Shown here: piece by piece, positions 1-47,045 of the stretch | Layout of the letters: the number at the start of each line of letters is the position of its first letter | How positions within the stretch are numbered: the first letter of the stretch is position 1 | NCBI RefSeq assembly: GCF_004010195.1 | Contig: NC_057719.1 | Coordinates: forward strand, 13,624,151 to 13,685,533 | Direction: 5' to 3' | Length of the DNA stretch: 61,383 nt | Source of the DNA: Chiloscyllium plagiosum | Lineage: Eukaryota | Notes under the pieces: model-generated | The model's database searches: none | Told to the model about the DNA's origin: nothing | Seen by the model: the letters and a program-made list of their open reading frames with translations, nothing else | Position numbers and translations under genes: made by a program

Positions 1-279
1 CAACTCTCCAACTTGGCACCACCCTCTTGGCTTGTCCTACCTGTTCATCTTCATTCACCGCCTAAACACTTCACCCTCCCCACTGTCCTATCACAATTAC
101 CCCCTCCCCCACCTGCATCCACCTATTNNNNNNNNNNNNNNNNNNNNNNNNNNNNNNNNNNNNTTATCATTCAGGCCCCTTCCCCCACCACATTCCTAAT
201 GAAGGGCTTATGCCTGAAATGTCGTCTCTCCTGCTCCTCGGATGCTGCCTGACCTGCTGGGCTTTTCCAGCACCACTCT
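1..279 (+). mobile_element. Penelope-like element 3' region and terminus (family 1), with a mutated hammerhead motif
   Basis: C-rich 3' region followed by ttcctaatgaagggcttatgcctgaaatgtc (196-223), a degenerate version of the CTGATGA-AGGGC-TTAT-GCCC-GAAACGTC motif. The same terminus is attached to a GIY-YIG remnant at 16.3-16.8 kb. N gap at 128-163. Confidence 0.75.
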
Positions 280-558
280 CTGCTCCTTGGAAGCTGCCTG
301 ACCTGCTAGGCCTTTCCAGCACACTCTCTGCTCCTCAGAAGCTGCCTGACCTGCTGGGCTTTTCCAGCACACTCTCTGCTCCTCGGAAGCTGCCTGACCT
401 GCTGGGCCTTTCCAGCACACTCTCTGCTCCTCGGAAGCTGCCTGACCTGCTGGGCTTTTCCAGCACACTCTCTGCTCCTCGGAAGCTGCCTGACCGGCTG
501 GGCTTTTCCAGCACACTCTCTGCTCCTCGGAAGCTGCCTGACCTGCTGGGCTTTTGCA
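231..558 (+). repeat. 48-bp tandem repeat (about 6.8 units) derived from the Penelope-like terminus
   Basis: Unit ctgctcctcggaagctgcctgacctgctgggcttttccagcacactct starts at 231, 280, 328, 376, 424, 472 and 520. Confidence 0.95.
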
Positions 559-1225
559 GGTCAGAATTTTTTGATCCGGCCCCCACGCACCCTCCCAAAC
601 ATGTTCAGATTACACATTAGCTTACCATTGCAGATGAGATTGGTGATGGTCTTTGAGTGGTCTTAAATGTCTTTTTCTTTAGCTTCTGCTTGATATAAAC
701 CCATTTGTTACTGGGGATTAAAATTAGTCCCCATTCTCACCTCACAAAAAATTTAATCATACAGATAAATTAAAGAAACATAGACAGCCATAGTCTGAAT
801 ACGGCTCAGCCACACAGGCTCTTTGACAGCTTTCTGGGTGCATTCTAGTGACCTGTGTGAGAACTGAAGACAGTCCATCCAATGAATCCTGTGTTACCCA
901 ACAAGAGTGCATGTGCTATTGACTGAAACTTGAGTTCACCAGGGTCCCAACCTTTCTCTTTGCTCTAAAATAGCTTCAATTGCACCAGAAAGGGTCAGGA
1001 GTGGATCTCCTGAACATATTTACAGCACAATGCCTGACAATTCTGTCCCCAGCCTTTTATTCGTTTCACCTTAAATTACTTCAATAGCAAGAGGAAGAGA
1101 TAGAGAAGAAGAGAGATTTTGAACATTTTTCACAACAATCATAACAAGTCTTGTAAAGCTCAATGTTACATAAAATCTTTTCTCTCATTGATTCTTTGTT
1201 AATGAGTTTGCAGGCTATAGACTCG

Positions 1226-30091: not shown

Positions 30092-30099
30092 ATAAGTCA

Positions 30100-32100
30100 C
30101 ATTGCCAGCGGGTTATAGAAAGGATGTGGTTTGGATGGTGCATGAACTACCAGTAGGCAGTCATTTAGGGGTAAGAAAAACCCAAGCTAAAATAAAAAAG
30201 CATTTTTACTGGCCTGGACTACACAAGGACATAGCTGAATTTTGCCAGACATGTCATATATGTCAGGTAATTGGAAAATCATAGGCAGTAATTGAACCTG
30301 TACTTTTACTACCCATTCTTGCATTTGAGGAATCTTTTATAAGAGCCTTAGTTGACTGTGCGGGACTCCTACTTAAAACAAAAATTGGGAATCAGCATTT
30401 GTTAACAATAATGGATGTGTTCACTAGATTTCCAGAGGCCATTCCATGATGCAATATCACAGCTAAAAGGATTGTAGAGGAATTACTCAAATTTTTCTCT
30501 TGACACGGACTACCCACAGAGATACATTCAGATCAAGGGTCAAGCTTCACATCAAAATTTATCAAGGATGTTATGGATAGCCTAGGAATAAAACAATTCA
30601 AATCTACTGCGTACCATTCAGAATGTCAGGCAGCACTAGGTAGGTGGCATCTGACATTATAGCCGATGCTGAGGGCTTATAGCTAAGACTATCCAAATCA
30701 GTGGGATAAAAGATTTTTGCCATCAGGGATGCACCAAAATAATTGACTAAATTCAGTCCATTTGAATTAATTTTTAGACATGAAGTGAGAGAACTGTTAA
30801 AATTAGAGTCATAGGGTCACAGAGATGTACAGCATGGGAACAGACCCTTCCGTCCAACTTGTCCATGCCGACCAGATATCCCAACCCAATCTAGTCCCAC
30901 CTGCCAGCACNNNNNNNNNNNNNNNNNNNNNNNNNNNNNNNNNNNNNNNNNNNNNNNNNNNNNNNNNNNNNNNNNNNNNNTTATTCCATACACGTACTAC
31001 CCTCTGCGTGACAAAGTTGCCCCTTAGGTCTCTTTTATATCTTTCCCCTCTCACCCTAAATCTGTGCGCACACCAGGGAAAAGACTTTGTCTATTTATCC
31101 TATCCATGTCCCTCATAATTTTGTAAACCTCTATAAGGTCATCCCTCAGCTTCCAGGGAAAACAGCCCAGCCTATTCCCTATAGCTCAAATCCTCCAATC
31201 CTGGCAACATCCTTGTAAATCTTTTCTGAACCCTTTCAAGTTTCACAACATCTTTCCGATAGGAAGGAGACCAGAATTGCATGCAATATTCCAACAGTGG
31301 CCTAGCCAATGTCCTGTACAGCCACAACCACTGTACTCAATACTCTGATCAATAAATGCCTTCTTCACTATCCTATCTACCTGTGACTTCACTTTCAAGG
31401 AGCTATGAACCTGCACTCCAAGGTCTGTTTGTTCAGCAACACTCCCTAGGACCTTACCATTAAGTGTATAAGTCCTGCTAAGATTTGCTTGCCCAAAATG
31501 CAGCACCTCGCATTTATCTGAATTAAACTCCATCTGCCACTTCTCAGCCCATTGGCCCATCTGGTCCAGAACCTGTTGTAATCTGAGGTAACCTTCTTCA
31601 CTGTCCACTACACCTCCAATTTTGGTGTCATCTGCAAACTTACTAACTGTACCTCTTATGCTCACATCCAAATCATTTATGTAAATGACAAAAAGTAGAG
31701 GGCCCAGCACCGATCCTTGGAACTTTCAATTGATTAAAGAGAAATCGGTAAGTCAGAATTCAGAGACCACATATTTGGACTGTTTCAAATTTTGAGGAAT
31801 GATTAAATAGAGCAGGGGAATTGGCTAGACAGCATTTAAAGGTATCACAGCATACAATGAAACAGGAGGCAGACAAGAAATCAAAAATTTGCAGTTTTGG
31901 GATCAGGGTTAAGATTTTAGTGTTTCTTCCAGTGATAGGTGAATCTTTAAAAGCAAGGTTTAGTAGAAATTATCAAGTCAAAAGGAAATTGAGTGAGGTG
32001 AACTATTTACGGACACATAGAAGTCTCACAGAGTATGTCATGTTAATCTGCTCAAAAGGTATTTTGACAGGGAAGGAAAGCGAAAGGAGACTATGTTATT
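30100..32100 (+). pseudogene. Integrase (H2C2 zinc finger plus DDE core), interrupted by a CR1
   Basis: HELPVGSHLGVRKTQAKIKKHFYWPGLHKDIAEFCQTCHICQ; VDCAGLL; IHSDQGSSFT; AYHSECQAALGRWH. Confidence 0.9.
30806..31720 (-). mobile_element. CR1 3' fragment nested in integrase (N gap 30911-30980)
   Basis: LGPLLFVIYINDLD...KFADDTKIGG; very similar to the 11.7-kb copy. Confidence 0.93.
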
Positions 32101-32253
32101 GATTACAACACAGAGTGAAGAACCAAGTTCAGAGGATTCTGAATTGAACATTCCTCAAATTAAATTAGACAATGTGGAAGTTGTCAAAAAATAGAATATA
32201 TTATTGAGTTACTTTCAGAGGAAAATCGAAATGATCTGAAAGAGTTATTACTA

Positions 32254-33550
32254 TTGCATGGGGAGATTTACGGAAATAAACTGGGAAGTACTAACCTAAT
32301 TGTGCATGATGTAGATATAGGAGATGCTGTTCTGATTAAGCAATATCCTTATAGGCATAACCCTCTAAAGTTGGCACAGGTTCAGAAGGCGATAAAGCGC
32401 ATGCTCCAAAATGGCATTAATCGAAGTGAGTTACAGTGACTGGAGCACATGCATAGTCATGGTGCCAAAGCCAGATGGTACCCAATGGTTATGTGTGGAC
32501 TATCGCAAAGTCAATGCAGTTACAACGACTAGTGTACATCTGCTTCTACACTTGGAAGTCTATGTTGAAAAGGTGGGACAAGCAACTTGTATTTCTAAGT
32601 TGGACTTGCACAGAGGGTACTGGCAGGTACCTCTGTGAGAAAGAGGGAAGACAACTTTGGCTTTCATAACCCTGAATGGACTGTATTAATTTGAAGTTAT
32701 GTCATTTGGCATGAAAAATGCTCCAGCTACATTTCAGAGACTAACTAATAAGGTCATTGTCGGATTACCCATTGTGTCATATATATAGATGACCTGGGAT
32801 TTTTAATCACGCATGGAAAGAATATTTGCAACATTTATCAGAATTGTTTGATCGACTTTGGGAGGCAGGCTTGGTAATAAACGTAGCTAAAAGTGAATTT
32901 GCCAAAACCTAAGTCACCTTCCTGGGCCATGTTATTGGAGATGGACAAATGGCCCCACAGGATGGAAGAACAAGGGTAAGTGGGGAGTTTCCCATACCGT
33001 TAACAAAAAGAGCAGTATTACGGTTCCTGGGATTGAGTGGAAAATTTCATGGAAAACTATTACCAAATTTTAACAGTGTGGATGCTGCACTCACTGGATT
33101 ACTAAAGAAAGGCCAGAGGTTTCAGTGGACAGCGGACTGTCAGAAGGCATTTGACAGCCTGAAAGCTGTGTTAACCATTGCCCCAGTATTTAGCCACACT
33201 CAATTATGCAAAGCCCTTCAAGGTGGCTATCGACGCAGGTGATGTGGGTATCGGTGCTGTGCTCTTACAGGAAGACGACGAGAAGATGGAAAGACCTATC
33301 GGGTATTTCTCCAGGAAGTTGAACACTCAGCAGCAGGAATATTCAATGGTTGAGAAGCAGACTTTGATGTTGGTGTTGGCGTTACCACATTTCAGCGTTT
33401 ATGTGTTTCTGAGACAGTGATCATAACCCATTGAAGTTTGTGGAGAAATTGAAGGACAAAAATGCCAGATTGTTCAGATGGAGTTTGTTGTTAAGCCATT
33501 CAATTTGAAAATTGTGCATGTGGCAGGATGAGATTGTCGACGCATTGTCG
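32254..33550 (+). pseudogene. Reverse transcriptase and RNase H, broken
   Basis: SDWSTCIVMVPKPDGTQWLCVDYRKVN, KLDLHRGYWQVP, FGMKNAPATFQR, YIDD (32782-32793), FKVAIDAGDVGIGAVLLQ, YFSRKLN, DHNPL. Confidence 0.93.
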
Positions 33551-42129: not shown

Positions 42130-44200
42130 GTATCTCTTCGTGGTTGCAGGAAAAAATCTGGGGAGCAGAAGGGGAAGGATCCAGCTGTGCAATCCACATT
42201 GGAACCAAAGATACAGAAAGAATCAGGAGTGGAGCATTTCAGAGAGAGATTGGTGATTTGGGTTGAAACTAAAATATAGAATCTCAAAGGCTATAATATC
42301 TGGATTGGTTCCTTACCTCTGCACAAACCTGTTCAGGAGCAAAGAGATTAGAATGTTAAATGTACAGTGAAGTGTGAGAGGCAGTGGTTTTAATTCGTGG
42401 GGCACACATAATAGGTTGTTGTGAACAAAGGAGTTGTTTCATTTGGACGTGTGGCTTATAAAATGGACTGTGACCAGCTTTCTGGCAAATACCCAGGATG
42501 TTAGTCAGAGCTGCGGAAGTGGCAGTGAAGAGGACGTGATTGGTTAGAAGGATTCAGGAAAGGACAATTCAAAACAGAATGACAACTATCAAGGCTGGGG
42601 AGCAAAGTAATGGTTTCGCTAAAAATGAGAAGCCTGGCTCAGAAAGAGAGAGACGTTTAACAAAGATTTTGAGGAACAGAGATGAAAAGCACATTGGAGA
42701 ATACAGACAAAATATTTATACTAAATACACTATATTTAAACGTGTAGAGTGTTTACAAAAAGTCGTTGACTTAACAGCACAAGTAAAGATAAATGGGTTG
42801 ACTTAATTGTAATTACACAGATATAGTTGCAAAGTGACAAATTAACCAAAACAAATCCAAGAACCGCAGATGCTGAAAATCTGAAACAAAAAACAGAAAT
42901 AGCTGGAAAAACCCAGTGGATGTGAAAGTACCTGTGAGAGACCATTTCGAGTTTAGTAACCCTTCTTTATAATTGAAGAAGGTTCACTGGACTCAAAATT
43001 TTCTCTCTGCTTTCTCTCTATGGGAGCTGACAGACCAGCTGATTTCTCCAGCAATTTCTGTTTTTGTGACAAAGTGACCAAACGTGTCCACTTGCTTTTT
43101 TACAGGAGAAGGATTAGGGAAGAGTCAGGTAATAAACCTGACAATAAAGGATGGGATAAATATAATGGAAAGGAAGCATCTTAGCTCAGAAAATCAAGAT
43201 CTCGAATCAGATGGCTGGTGCTAATGAATACCAAAGAGATACCAAACATTGATCAGAATAATTCACAGGGGTCTGTCAGAAGTTGTTTGCGTCCAGCTGT
43301 GGGAGGCGATAGCCTAGTGATATTATTGCTGGACTGTTAACCCAAAGACTCAGGTAATGTTCTGGGGAACTGGGTTTGAATCGTGCCGCAGCAGATGGTG
43401 GAATCTGAATTCAGTAAAACAAAAAAATCTGGAATTAAGAATCTAATGATGACCATGAATCCATTATTGATTGCCTGGAAAATGCATCTGATTCACTAAT
43501 GCCTTTGAGGGAAGGAAACAGCCATCCTTACCTGCTCTGGCCTACATGTGACTCCAGACCGACAGTAATGTGATTGGCTCTTAACTGTTAGGGATGGGAA
43601 ATAAATGCTGCCTAGACAATGATGTCTGAATTTAAAGAACCAACTGTGCCAGGCAGAGTAGGAGTCCTGAAGTTAGATGAGCATGTAATAAGGGTTGATG
43701 ATAATCAAATCATGAGGAACTTGATCTTCATATGGACTTGGTAACTGACATTGACAGTAGTACTTTAGAGGATCAGTTCAGAGATAGTATTCAAGGTAGT
43801 TTTCGAGGTTAATATGGTGAGCAACCAATTATATTAAACCTAACATTGCACAATGAGAAAGCATTAAATAATAATCTTACATTAAATGTACCTGTGCGGA
43901 GGAGTGACTGTGATGGAAGCTGAACCAAGCAAACTATATATGTAATAATCTAGATTGGGAAACTAAATTAAAAGGTAGAAAGATGGATAAGCAAAAAGGA
44001 ATGGTTCAATAATGAGTTCATCATCTGCAACAACTTTACGTTCCCTTAAGGTATAAAACCTCTCAGCAATAATCATCCAACCATTGCTAATAAGAGAAGC
44101 TTAAGACAATATTAGAGTGAAAGAAAAGGCTGATAACACTACCAAAACTAAATGCAAGTCTAAGGATTGGGAGGGTTTTGGAATTTAGTGCAATTTTCAA
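42130..44200 (+). mobile_element. Old, heavily decayed CR1 (ORF1 end to early ORF2) hosting a family 4 fold-back insert (about 42845-43068) and a SINE (43300-43630)
   Basis: atccacattggaaccaaagat (IHIGTxD esterase motif); endonuclease-like remnants. The insert is flanked by caaagtgacaaa and caaagtgaccaa. Confidence 0.6.
43300..43630 (+). mobile_element. tRNA-like SINE (second family)
   Basis: gatagcctagtgatatta...gggtttgaatc (A/B-box-like); matches 16295-17130. Confidence 0.78.
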
Positions 44201-44472
44201 TACACTACACCCGTGGGGTCCCCAGTAAATCTGAGATACAGTGGTCTGAACGTTCTTTTTTTTAAACTGAGTCCAAGTCACGTTAAAAATTCTGGAGAGA
44301 TTTTCACTGTGAGGCCTGGCATCAGTGTTTCTTACTAAACCTGCCTCTCCCTTGTGAGCTCTGTTCAATTCTAGCCCCACCTTAACTTGGTCATTGATTT
44401 TGCTAATGTATGGCAAACACAAGCAAAGTGTTTGGGTTTTCCATGAGATTTACACGGCTCACCCTCCAGTGT

Positions 44473-44756
44473 GATAGATTCCAAAGAGTACACTGAGGTT
44501 GCTAACAGCTTCAACTTGCATCGACATTGCACACTGGCCACCAAAGCCCCCTGCAAAGCAACCACCTGCTTTTCAGCTACTTGCAACTTGTCCAGAGCAC
44601 GTTTTGACAATGTTGCCAGGGTCAAAACATGCTCTGGACAAGTTGCAAGTAGCTGAAAAGCAGGTGGTTGCTTTGCAGGGGGCTTTGGTGGCCAGTGTGC
44701 AATGTCGATGCAAGCTGAAGCTGTTAGCAACCTCAGTGTACCCTTTGGAATCTATC
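44473..44756. repeat. Long inverted repeat: 136-bp arms, 12-nt loop, 3 mismatches
   Basis: 44473-44608 is the reverse complement of 44621-44756 except at 44487/44742, 44514/44715 and 44600/44629. Confidence 0.98.
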
Positions 44757-45311
44757 GGCAGTCACCTTGCTAAGCCAACAGCTTGAAGAGTTTTATGACT
44801 TTATCACATAGCACAGTTGACCAGAAACTCAAGCTTCAATTCTGGAAGAATGGCACCTCATTTTCCAGTTGAGGACCCTGCAATCTTCTGGACTCAATAT
44901 CAAGTTCAACAACTTGAGGTCTTGAGCCCTCCCATGTCCTTACTCCCACCGCCCACACACAAGCCTTGTTATCACATCATCTCATTTGCTTCTTGCATTG
45001 TGTGCCTCGGGATAGTTTCCTTTGTATTACTTTACTCTTCACAGGCAAATCAAAATTGGCTGTTCATGGATTTTTTTTGTTGAATTGCAATCATTTTGAG
45101 CAGGTGTGACTTCCAGCTGTTCACCCTCAGAGTGGAGAAGTAAGATAATTTACCTCGTATACAGGATTATGAAACATCGCATCATGCCTTTGGAAGGAAA
45201 TGGTCATGTTTGGCAAAGTGCCAAATACAGCTATGATTCTAAATGCACATCAAAAATGTGACAGATTGAAAGTAGCAAATGCCATATTGATCAGCAACAA
45301 CAAAACATTTT

Positions 45312-45623
45312 TTTTTCTTTTGGTTTTCTTTTTTTCTTTTTTTGTGTGCAGGTGTGAGACACAATGAAAGACAACAGATGCACAAGTCTTTATTCAAGTC
45401 TCACCACCAGGAAGAAAAGAAAGCACCCAAGTGGCCAGTGACAAGCAGTGCCCTTCACATCAAAGGGCAATGCTGTGTGATCAAACAGTGAAGGGGAGGG
45501 CAGGGACTAAATCAAAATAGAGTTGGAGGGGGAAATAATACACTCCACTCCCCGTGGCACCCACCTCTCCCTGAATAGCTCAAGGGTGTTGGTGGACACC
45601 TTGTGCTCCTTCTCCAGAGACAC
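45312..45623 (-). mobile_element. Tx1/L1-clade LINE 3' fragment with poly(A) tail and TSD
   Basis: Minus translation VSLEKEHKVSTNTLELFRERWVPRGVECIISPSNSILI*; AATAAA (tttatt near 45390); T-rich tail; caaaacatttt at 45301-45311 and 45624-45634. Confidence 0.82.
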
Positions 45624-45972
45624 CAAAACATTTTATTCTAATGAAATGTCTCCATGATGATAAAAAGTTAATTAATACTTCTAGGCTGCATTGTCATACT
45701 GGTGAGGTCCAAGTGAATGTGTTCACTCTGTGTCCAACACTAGCTCATTGGGTTCCTAACTCTCCACCTTAAAACGCTTTCTGCTGCTGAAAGGAAATAA
45801 ATACGTTTCCAAAGGATTATTCCGGAAACCAATGTTGCCTAATTTTCACCATCACCATCGTTGTTGCCAGTGTAAAGTTCTTTAGATGAAACAGATGCAC
45901 TTGAAATTAGAACTGCATATTCTTTTAAACATTAATAGTGGGATTGAGAACTTCACAAGTGTTAGCATAAGG

Positions 45973-46675: not shown

Positions 46676-47045
46676 AAGGGTTAGTGCGAGGATTAGGTTT
46701 AGGGTTAGGGTGAGGGTGAGGGCTAGGGTAAGGGTGAGGGTTAGGGTGAGAGTTAGGGTGAAGGTTAGGGTTAGGGTTTTAGTTAGCGTGAGGGTGAGTG
46801 ATAGAATTAGAGTAATGGTGTAGGTTAGGGTTAGGATGAGGGTGAGGGTTAGGGTTAAGGTTAGAATGAGGGTGATGGTTAGGGTTAGGGTGATGGTGAG
46901 GGTTAGTATTAGAGTTAGGGTTAGGGTGAGGGTGAGGGTTAGGGTTAGCATTAGCATGAGGATGAGGGCTAGGTTTAGGATGATGGTGAGGTTTTGTGTT
47001 GGGATGAGACCTTGGGTTAACGTGATGGTTGAAGAGTTAGGTGAA
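46676..47045 (+). repeat. Degenerate interstitial telomere-like hexamer array (TTAGGG, TGAGGG, TGATGG and other variants)
   Basis: About 60 hexamers in phase, many of them exact TTAGGG. Confidence 0.88.

What the first reader, a model, noticed from the sequence alone, without database searches (positions are those of the whole stretch)
44473..44756. Unique 136-bp-stem hairpin whose mismatches are all G-U pairs on the minus strand
Seen: arms 133/136 identical with a 12-nt loop, unrelated to any repeat recognised here, no TSD evident, next to a heavily decayed CR1. All three mismatches are A-C on the plus strand, so a minus-strand RNA would form an uninterrupted 136-bp duplex with three wobble pairs. 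With only three transitions, agreement on one strand has a 1-in-4 chance, so this is suggestive only. Both strands read through the hairpin in an open frame giving nearly the same peptide (ALDKLQVAEKQVVALQGALVASVQCRCKLKLLATSVY), and on minus the arm is followed by a donor-like G/GTGAGC at 44462. Established: long near-perfect palindromes are unstable in DNA, and long hairpin RNAs can yield endogenous siRNAs or be ADAR-edited. Inference: a recent fold-back duplication, arm homogenisation by gene conversion, or a hairpin-RNA locus silencing a homologous gene or element elsewhere.
Basis: partly seen in the sequence, partly recalled or inferred. Interest (0 to 1): 0.75.

Follow-up and report, generated by a model that had tools for sequence, protein, structure and literature searches.

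The report
Fold-back copying scar in shark DNA
A 136-base stretch of apparently non-coding DNA in a shark-like genome sits beside its own mirror-image copy, which two related species lack; it likely arose when DNA synthesis folded back and copied the neighbouring sequence, a known kind of mutation, and nothing found here shows that it makes a working RNA.

Summary
The hairpin is real (arms 44473-44608 and 44621-44756, 133/136, 12-nt loop) and single-copy. Contigs from three other animals of the species carry it, so it is no assembly artefact. Two related species have only the loop and right arm; in one, a contig joins 44474 to 44611 across 5 letters. That junction shows a 4-bp inverted primer (TGAC/GTCA) and 2 nt of return homology, the signature of a short-range template switch or snap-back repair that added 131 bases.

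The G-U pattern is weak evidence (7% by chance for 3 of 3). At least two of the three mismatches are variants missing in another animal. The arm is no better conserved than its flanks, has no parent or target, and its open frames match nothing. Long hairpins are common in this genome (36 in 829 kb); only the unique sequence is unusual. Transcription remains untested.

The scan reported the same kind of event elsewhere in this genome (e1-9178131). Verdict: a clean, long example of a known mutation, most likely neutral.

The parts
44473..44608 (.). Left arm: the new copy, reverse complement of 44621-44756; absent in related species B and C
   Evidence: table 5 (X15 joint 44474->44611, skips 136); table 8 (X13 record 9, X15 record 16)
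44609..44620 (.). 12-nt loop; 44611-44620 is older sequence shared with B and C, while 44609-44610 (AA) stands where species C has four other letters
   Evidence: (pieces begin at 44611; letters between table 5c)
44621..44756 (.). Right arm: older single-copy sequence, the template; present once in B and C
44605..44608 (+). TGAC, inner end of the left arm; the same four letters stand at species C's junction and pair with GTCA at 44621-44624 (inferred fold-back primer or switch homology)
   Evidence: chance of the 4-mer at that place about 0.4%
44472..44474 (+). Outer junction: GA (44473-44474) belongs both to the older flank and to the start of the copy (2-nt homology); TGA recurs at 44605-44607, a 3-nt direct repeat around the 133 inserted letters
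44760..44765 (+). AGTCAC, a 6-nt inverted partner of the six letters that span species C's junction, just beyond the outer arm end; possible first switch site (needs an extra 7-nt loss)
   Evidence: 0.02% per position; inference
44819..44982 (+). Old high-copy repeat fragment (80-86% to other copies), also in B and C; homology stops before the arm; Penelope-like by a recalled motif
   Evidence: no Pfam match above noise

Best explanation
The left arm is a mirror-image copy of the adjacent 136 bases that two related species lack, likely written in a single template-switch (fold-back) event in this species' lineage and likely without function. Inferred mechanism: a nascent or broken minus strand ending in GTCA paired with its own TGAC 14 nt back, copied about 132 bases of itself, then rejoined the left flank through a 2-nt homology. 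This is four-point type 3-2-1-4 / 3-2-4-1, or its mirror 1-4-3-2 by an inter-strand jump; four letters of the old spacer became AA and the net gain was 131 bases. The arms started identical and have since gathered a few ordinary transitions, one at a CpG, some still varying between animals. Shown: the structure, its presence in four animals, its absence in two relatives, and the junction letters of one relative. Inferred: direction of change, the enzyme and setting (replication fork or break repair), and lack of function.
For: Species C: one 1215-nt contig joins 44474 to 44611 with 5 letters between (tables 5, 5c, 8). Species B: one 1107-nt contig has 148 letters where the window has 374, with depths that fit cover ending at 44474 and resuming at 44611. 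Species A: X1 runs from flank 72 nt into the left arm; X5 covers the same junction (inferred from tables 2-3); X2 gives flank-arm, arm-loop-arm and arm-flank records. The 4-bp inverted homology sits exactly at the inner junction (0.4% by chance). At 44650 both arms differ from B and C alike, which fits a change before the copy. X1 and X5 read G at 44487; X2 reads T at 44715 and its records end 30 nt into the arms, so it lacks both outer mismatches. Arm-side divergence is not below flank divergence: C 17/225 vs 37/825, B 9/241 vs 28/690. Flank changes show no strand bias (6 vs 6, partial list). Types 1-4-3-2 and 3-2-1-4 are the commonest in apes and make single inverted repeats (PMC7954356).
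Against: The root is not firm: C has the longest branch (8/7/17 changes on A/B/C over 527 nt), but 9 of B's 28 differences were not listed and could erase that lead. Counting X1's extra variant (44498 G>A), 4 of 4 post-copy changes keep minus-strand G-U pairs: 12.5% given transitions, 2.4% overall; only 1 of 20 other hairpins with 3 or more mismatches is all-wobble on one strand. The copied tract (132-136 nt) exceeds the longest in the ape gold-standard set (128; median 12). The TCAG-to-AA change needs an extra step. B's junction letters were not seen. X1's 44498 variant equals B's letter at the partner site 44731, which I cannot explain beyond recurrence or conversion.
Confidence: 0.8

Rival explanations
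1. The hairpin is older than the three species, is kept near-perfect in species A by arm-to-arm correction, and was deleted in B and C by slippage across the TGA direct repeat.
For: Such a deletion would give nearly C's junction, apart from the AA versus four-letter difference. Rooting is uncertain. X1's 44498 variant matches B's partner letter.
Against: Without correction, 4.1-5.4 shared mismatches would be expected, against at most 1 shared by the reference and X2 (P 0.03-0.09). It needs B and C to be sisters or two identical losses, while C's branch looks longest.
Confidence: 0.07
2. Born by a template switch, but now a transcribed minus-strand hairpin RNA (siRNA or miRNA source, or ADAR substrate) under selection to keep pairing.
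For: All 3 reference mismatches and X1's fourth variant give G-U on minus (2.4-12.5% by chance). All 4 animals seen carry it. A donor-like hexamer lies 11 nt past the arm (about 2.4% within 20 nt of an arm end). Template switches have made primate miRNA stems (10.1101/2023.04.19.537475).
Against: No complementary parent or target. Arm not conserved in B or C. Rfam hits are generic and far below gathering scores (best 62 bits vs 95-100). A 136-bp stem is far from the 35-bp pri-miRNA preference. No host exon found by Pfam in the window or 100 kb either side (partial scan). The pattern was picked after the fact.
Confidence: 0.06
3. The copy was made during, or primed by, a Penelope-type fold-back insertion, as proposed for other loci in this genome.
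For: 35 of 36 sampled long hairpins are repeat-derived, and an old repeat fragment lies 63 nt right of the arm.
Against: The repeat's homology stops at 44819, outside the arm; it is 80-86% like its family and is present in B and C, so it predates the copy; no repeat letters occur in arms or loop.
Confidence: 0.04
4. Assembly or library artefact (a fold-back chimera).
For: No single contig or long read seen here spans the whole hairpin.
Against: Runs from three other samples in two studies carry the flank-to-left-arm junction, and X2 carries arm-loop-arm; they have their own alleles at the mismatch sites.
Confidence: 0.01

Closest known systems
Short-range template-switch mutation, four-point model, types 1-4-3-2 / 3-2-1-4 (Walker et al. 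2021, PMC7954356; passages and section 8 read)
   Same: A reverse-complement copy of nearby sequence appears as one insertion and creates a single perfect inverted repeat; the length increases, as in 65% of ape events.
   Different: The tract is 132-136 nt against a median of 12 and a maximum of 128 in their gold set; here it is in a cartilaginous-fish-like genome, and a small extra change sits in the loop.
[quoted passage not shown]
   Same: An inverted 3-4-nt primer repeat near the break primes self-copying, and a microhomology rejoins the other end; the insert becomes part of a longer inverted repeat.
   Different: Their primers are mostly under 10 bp apart (14 here; up to 25 seen) and synthesis is described as non-processive, against about 132 nt here. 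Sequence alone cannot tell this route from a fork switch.
Template-switch-born miRNA hairpins (Monttinen et al., 10.1101/2023.04.19.537475; abstract and first part of Results read)
   Same: One copying event makes a whole perfect stem from unstructured DNA in one lineage.
   Different: Those are expressed loci with stems near 35 bp, enriched in introns; here the stem is four times longer and no host gene or expression was found.
Drosophila hpRNA endo-siRNA loci (PMC10317233, passages read)
   Same: Long, lineage-specific inverted repeat able to fold into a Dicer-length duplex.
   Different: hpRNAs are mRNA-like transcripts giving ~21-nt Dicer-2-dependent siRNAs and mostly have an overt complementary target or progenitor gene; none was found here.

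Membership tests
Short-range template-switch mutation (1-4-3-2 / 3-2-1-4) | One allele holds a reverse-complement copy of sequence within tens to hundreds of bases, and the other allele lacks it | tested here: met
Short-range template-switch mutation (1-4-3-2 / 3-2-1-4) | Direction resolved: the hairpin allele is the descendant | tested here: inconclusive
   Two relatives share the single-arm state and the arms are too alike for an old uncorrected hairpin, but the root rests on partial lists
Short-range template-switch mutation (1-4-3-2 / 3-2-1-4) | Four switch points explain the change with few leftover differences | tested here: met
   133 inserted letters explained; leftover is four letters to AA; worked out by hand, their pairHMM was not run
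Short-range template-switch mutation (1-4-3-2 / 3-2-1-4) | Arises at a replication fork | not testable with these tools
   The model is mechanism-agnostic
Snap-back SD-MMEJ | Inverted primer repeat beside the junction | tested here: met
   TGAC/GTCA, 14 nt apart in species C
Snap-back SD-MMEJ | Microhomology at the rejoining point | tested here: met
   2 nt only, which chance gives about 1 time in 16
Snap-back SD-MMEJ | Short, non-processive synthesis at a double-strand break (polymerase theta) | not testable with these tools
   Tract about 132 nt, long for this route; enzyme not knowable from sequence
hpRNA / endo-siRNA locus | Transcribed primary hairpin RNA | tested here: inconclusive
   The RNA lay was no test (see Tried and rejected)
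hpRNA / endo-siRNA locus | ~21-nt Dicer-dependent small RNAs | not testable with these tools
   No small-RNA run was offered's list
hpRNA / endo-siRNA locus | Complementary target or progenitor gene elsewhere | tested here: not met
   Only self matches by DNA at E<=1; translated searches give self plus one E 6.9 hit. The DNA search skips very common words, and seed-length targets were not sought.
miRNA precursor | Stem near 35 bp or match to a known family | tested here: not met
   136-bp stem; 0 Rfam matches at gathering; all 8 weaker matches in 43300-45800 below cut-off
Fold-back transposon, MITE or Penelope fold-back stub | Many dispersed copies | tested here: not met
   single-contig depth over the right arm in B and C at 80% likeness
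Fold-back transposon, MITE or Penelope fold-back stub | Whole element, both arms, missing from the orthologous empty site | tested here: not met
   Right arm and most of the loop are present in B and C

The most novel reading that the evidence does not exclude
A single copying slip created a 136-bp double-stranded-RNA locus from scratch in a shark lineage, it spread through the species, and selection on a minus-strand transcript now lets only G-U-preserving changes persist: a newborn vertebrate hairpin-RNA gene caught with its exact pre-birth sequence still readable in sister species.
Probability: 0.05. Interest if true: 0.7.

Novelty: new member of a known kind. Interest (0 to 1): 0.17.

Why it matters
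As it stands, it is a tidy, long example of template-switch mutation outside mammals, with the before state readable in relatives. It shows that a 136-bp near-perfect palindrome with a 12-nt spacer can persist in all four animals examined. It would matter more only if the locus proved transcribed and processed, as a one-step birth of a long hairpin-RNA gene in a vertebrate.

Tried and rejected
RNA: no RNA holder was listed for 44000-45200. Two single-cell polyA runs of one sample gave 0 reads on 43650-44835 from about 2% and 6% of each run; the tool marks this as no test, and I use it neither way.

Protein-coding reading: no Pfam match for the 102-, 126-, 69- or 58-aa frames, no translated relative in the genome, and listed differences in relatives are mostly amino-acid changing within the arm (C 3 of 5, B 2 of 3; partial lists).

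Host gene: Pfam on 172 window frames and the 150 longest of 542 low-repeat frames in 200 kb of flanks gave only retroelement-type domains or noise. Short exons would be missed, so intron versus intergenic stays open. Synteny placed TFIIA, deiodinase and SNW1 families at 7.6, 8.3 and 11.4 Mb of the same contig, but IFT43 and a vasohibin lie on C12, so it gave no gene for 13.6 Mb.

Compensatory changes in orthologues cannot be scored, as the relatives have one arm. The first lay at 80% likeness over repeat-rich flanks cut most table rows, so B's junction letters and the older letter at 44629 were not seen. The stability of the pre-event mini-hairpin was not computed. I ran no protein-database search or fold, as there is no credible protein, and read no supplements.

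Full report
Observation. The inverted repeat is as described: arms 44473-44608 and 44621-44756, 136 nt, 12 nt apart, with mismatches 44487A/44742C, 44514A/44715C and 44600C/44629A, the last at a CpG. The minus strand folds as one stem at -297.2 kcal/mol and the plus strand at -277.8. The window lies on contig C10 of a 3.56-Gb assembly, and the arm matches only its two own places at E<=1; translated searches add one E 6.9 hit.

It is real. Of 24 runs listed, 8 holders carry the label organism A and 12 the labels B or C; I laid 7. X1 has one 998-nt contig from 43547 to 44544, 72 nt into the left arm. X5, from another study, has a contig over 44487 that by depth arithmetic spans about 44435-44541. 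X2 gives three records: 43650-44502, 44578-44756 (31 nt of left arm, loop and the whole right arm) and 44727 onward. No single record spans the whole hairpin, as expected of word-graph contigs on a palindrome.

Relatives lack the left arm. In species C one 1215-nt contig joins 44474 to 44611, skipping 136 with five letters, CTCAG, between. In species B one 1107-nt contig lies on 43547-44236 and 44611-44851 with 148 letters between where the window has 374; its depths of 2.73 and 0.49 in the two bins over the left arm are what cover ending at 44474 and resuming at 44611 would give. B's joint row and letters were among rows cut from the output. So the right arm and most of the loop are old single-copy DNA, and the left arm is a copy of them.

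Junction anatomy. In C, window 44472-44474 (TGA) plus the first of the five letters reads TGAC, which pairs with GTCA at 44621-44624, 14 nt away. The left arm of A ends in the same TGAC. Chance of that 4-mer at that place is 0.4%. At the outer end, GA at 44473-44474 belongs to both flank and copy. A strand ending in GTCA could therefore fold back, copy about 132 nt of itself and rejoin by 2 nt; 133 letters are inserted between two TGA, four spacer letters become AA, and the net change is +131. A 6-nt inverted partner of C's junction (AGTCAC, 44760-44765) lies just past the arm and may have served as the first switch site, at the cost of an extra 7-nt loss. These steps are inference.

Direction. 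Over 527 shared bases the listed changes fall 8, 7 and 17 on the A, B and C branches, which would make C the outgroup and the single-arm state ancestral. But 9 of B's 28 differences were not listed, and 5 or more shared with C would remove C's lead. An old uncorrected hairpin should show 4.1-5.4 shared mismatches; at most one is shared by the reference and X2 (P 0.03-0.09). Gain in A is the better reading. Loss in B and C with arm correction in A remains possible, because a deletion across the TGA repeat would give nearly C's junction.

The wobble pairs. X1 and X5 read G at 44487. X2 reads T at 44715, as B and C do, and its flank records end 30 nt into the arms, so it lacks both outer mismatches. 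X1 adds a variant, 44498 G>A, which would again be A-C on plus, and which equals B's letter at the partner site. So 3 of 3 reference mismatches, and 4 of 4 with X1's, favour minus-strand G-U: 25% and 12.5% given transitions, 7.2% and 2.4% with the 66% transition share seen in 35 other hairpins; 1 of 20 of those with three or more mismatches is all-wobble on one strand. This is the one result that leans against neutrality. It is weak, was noticed after the fact, and concerns changes that still vary between animals. Flank changes are balanced, 6 to 6, in a partial list.

No sign of function. Divergence on the arm side is not lower than in the left flank: 17/225 against 37/825 in C (P 0.09, in the direction of more change) and 9/241 against 28/690 in B; these right-hand pieces include some flank. 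The open frames match no Pfam family, and 1432 of 20000 simulated fold-backs leave a frame open. GGTGAG occurs once per 2.8 kb per strand, and a GGTRAG within 20 nt of an arm end has about a 2.4% chance. Rfam gives nothing at gathering scores and only generic hairpin matches below them. No host gene was found. Expression was not effectively tested.

Background. In 829 kb (the window, 20 flanking and 60 scattered stretches) there are 36 hairpins with arms of 40 bp or more, at most 10% mismatch and loops up to 50 nt. Of these, 35 match other places in the sample, four have longer arms (157-291 bp), and one has 114 perfect pairs. Long palindromes are thus ordinary here; this is the only unique-sequence one in the sample, and it was the one selected. 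The repeat right of the arm begins at 44819, is 80-86% like its best family members, and is also in B and C, so it did not make the hairpin.

Comparison. It works like, and meets the testable features of, a short-range template switch of type 1-4-3-2 / 3-2-1-4, the commonest types in apes (PMC7954356, passages and section 8). Its tract is slightly longer than their longest gold-standard event (128 nt). Snap-back SD-MMEJ gives the same product (PMC5728401, passages) and cannot be told apart by sequence. Template switches have produced primate miRNA stems (10.1101/2023.04.19.537475, abstract and first part of Results), and Drosophila hpRNAs mostly have overt targets (PMC10317233, passages); this locus fails the stem-length and target tests. 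Four literature searches were run, none aimed at sharks, so I make no claim that shark examples are unpublished.

Verdict. Real, new to this species' lineage on the better reading, a new member of a known class of mutation, and most likely neutral. Interest 0.17.

Noticed in passing
L071:11-339, L086:1836-2351, L091:8487-8882, L098:7421-8017, L064:459-715: Repeat-linked hairpins with arms of 157, 258, 187 and 291 bp (2-10 mismatches) and one with 114 perfect pairs; long hairpins occur about once per 23 kb in the sample.
   Followed up: no
window 44610-44786: The AA at the inner junction makes an ATG that opens a 58-codon frame through the right arm; species C has G before 44611. No Pfam match.
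   Followed up: partly
window 46677-46991: Decayed interstitial telomere-like array (AGGGTT/AGGGTG, about 50 units), 1.9 kb right of the hairpin.
   Followed up: no
window 44237-44474: Species B's contig is about 95 letters shorter than species C's in this flank, a separate B-specific loss by length arithmetic.
   Followed up: no
window 44498 and 44731: X1's left-arm variant equals species B's letter at the partner position in the right arm; recurrence, old polymorphism with conversion, or co-change of both arms could not be told apart.
   Followed up: partly
window 30096-33417: Broken retrotransposon fragments with integrase zinc-finger, RT and RNase H matches.
   Followed up: no
window 43547-44544: Other animals of the species differ from the reference by about 1% (X1 12/998, X2 8/853).
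   Followed up: no
G000 C10 and C12: TFIIA, deiodinase and SNW1 families lie in order on C10, while IFT43 and a vasohibin, their neighbours in human (recalled), lie on C12.
   Followed up: no
window 226-559: 48-bp tandem repeat, 6.9 copies, 94% matches.
   Followed up: no
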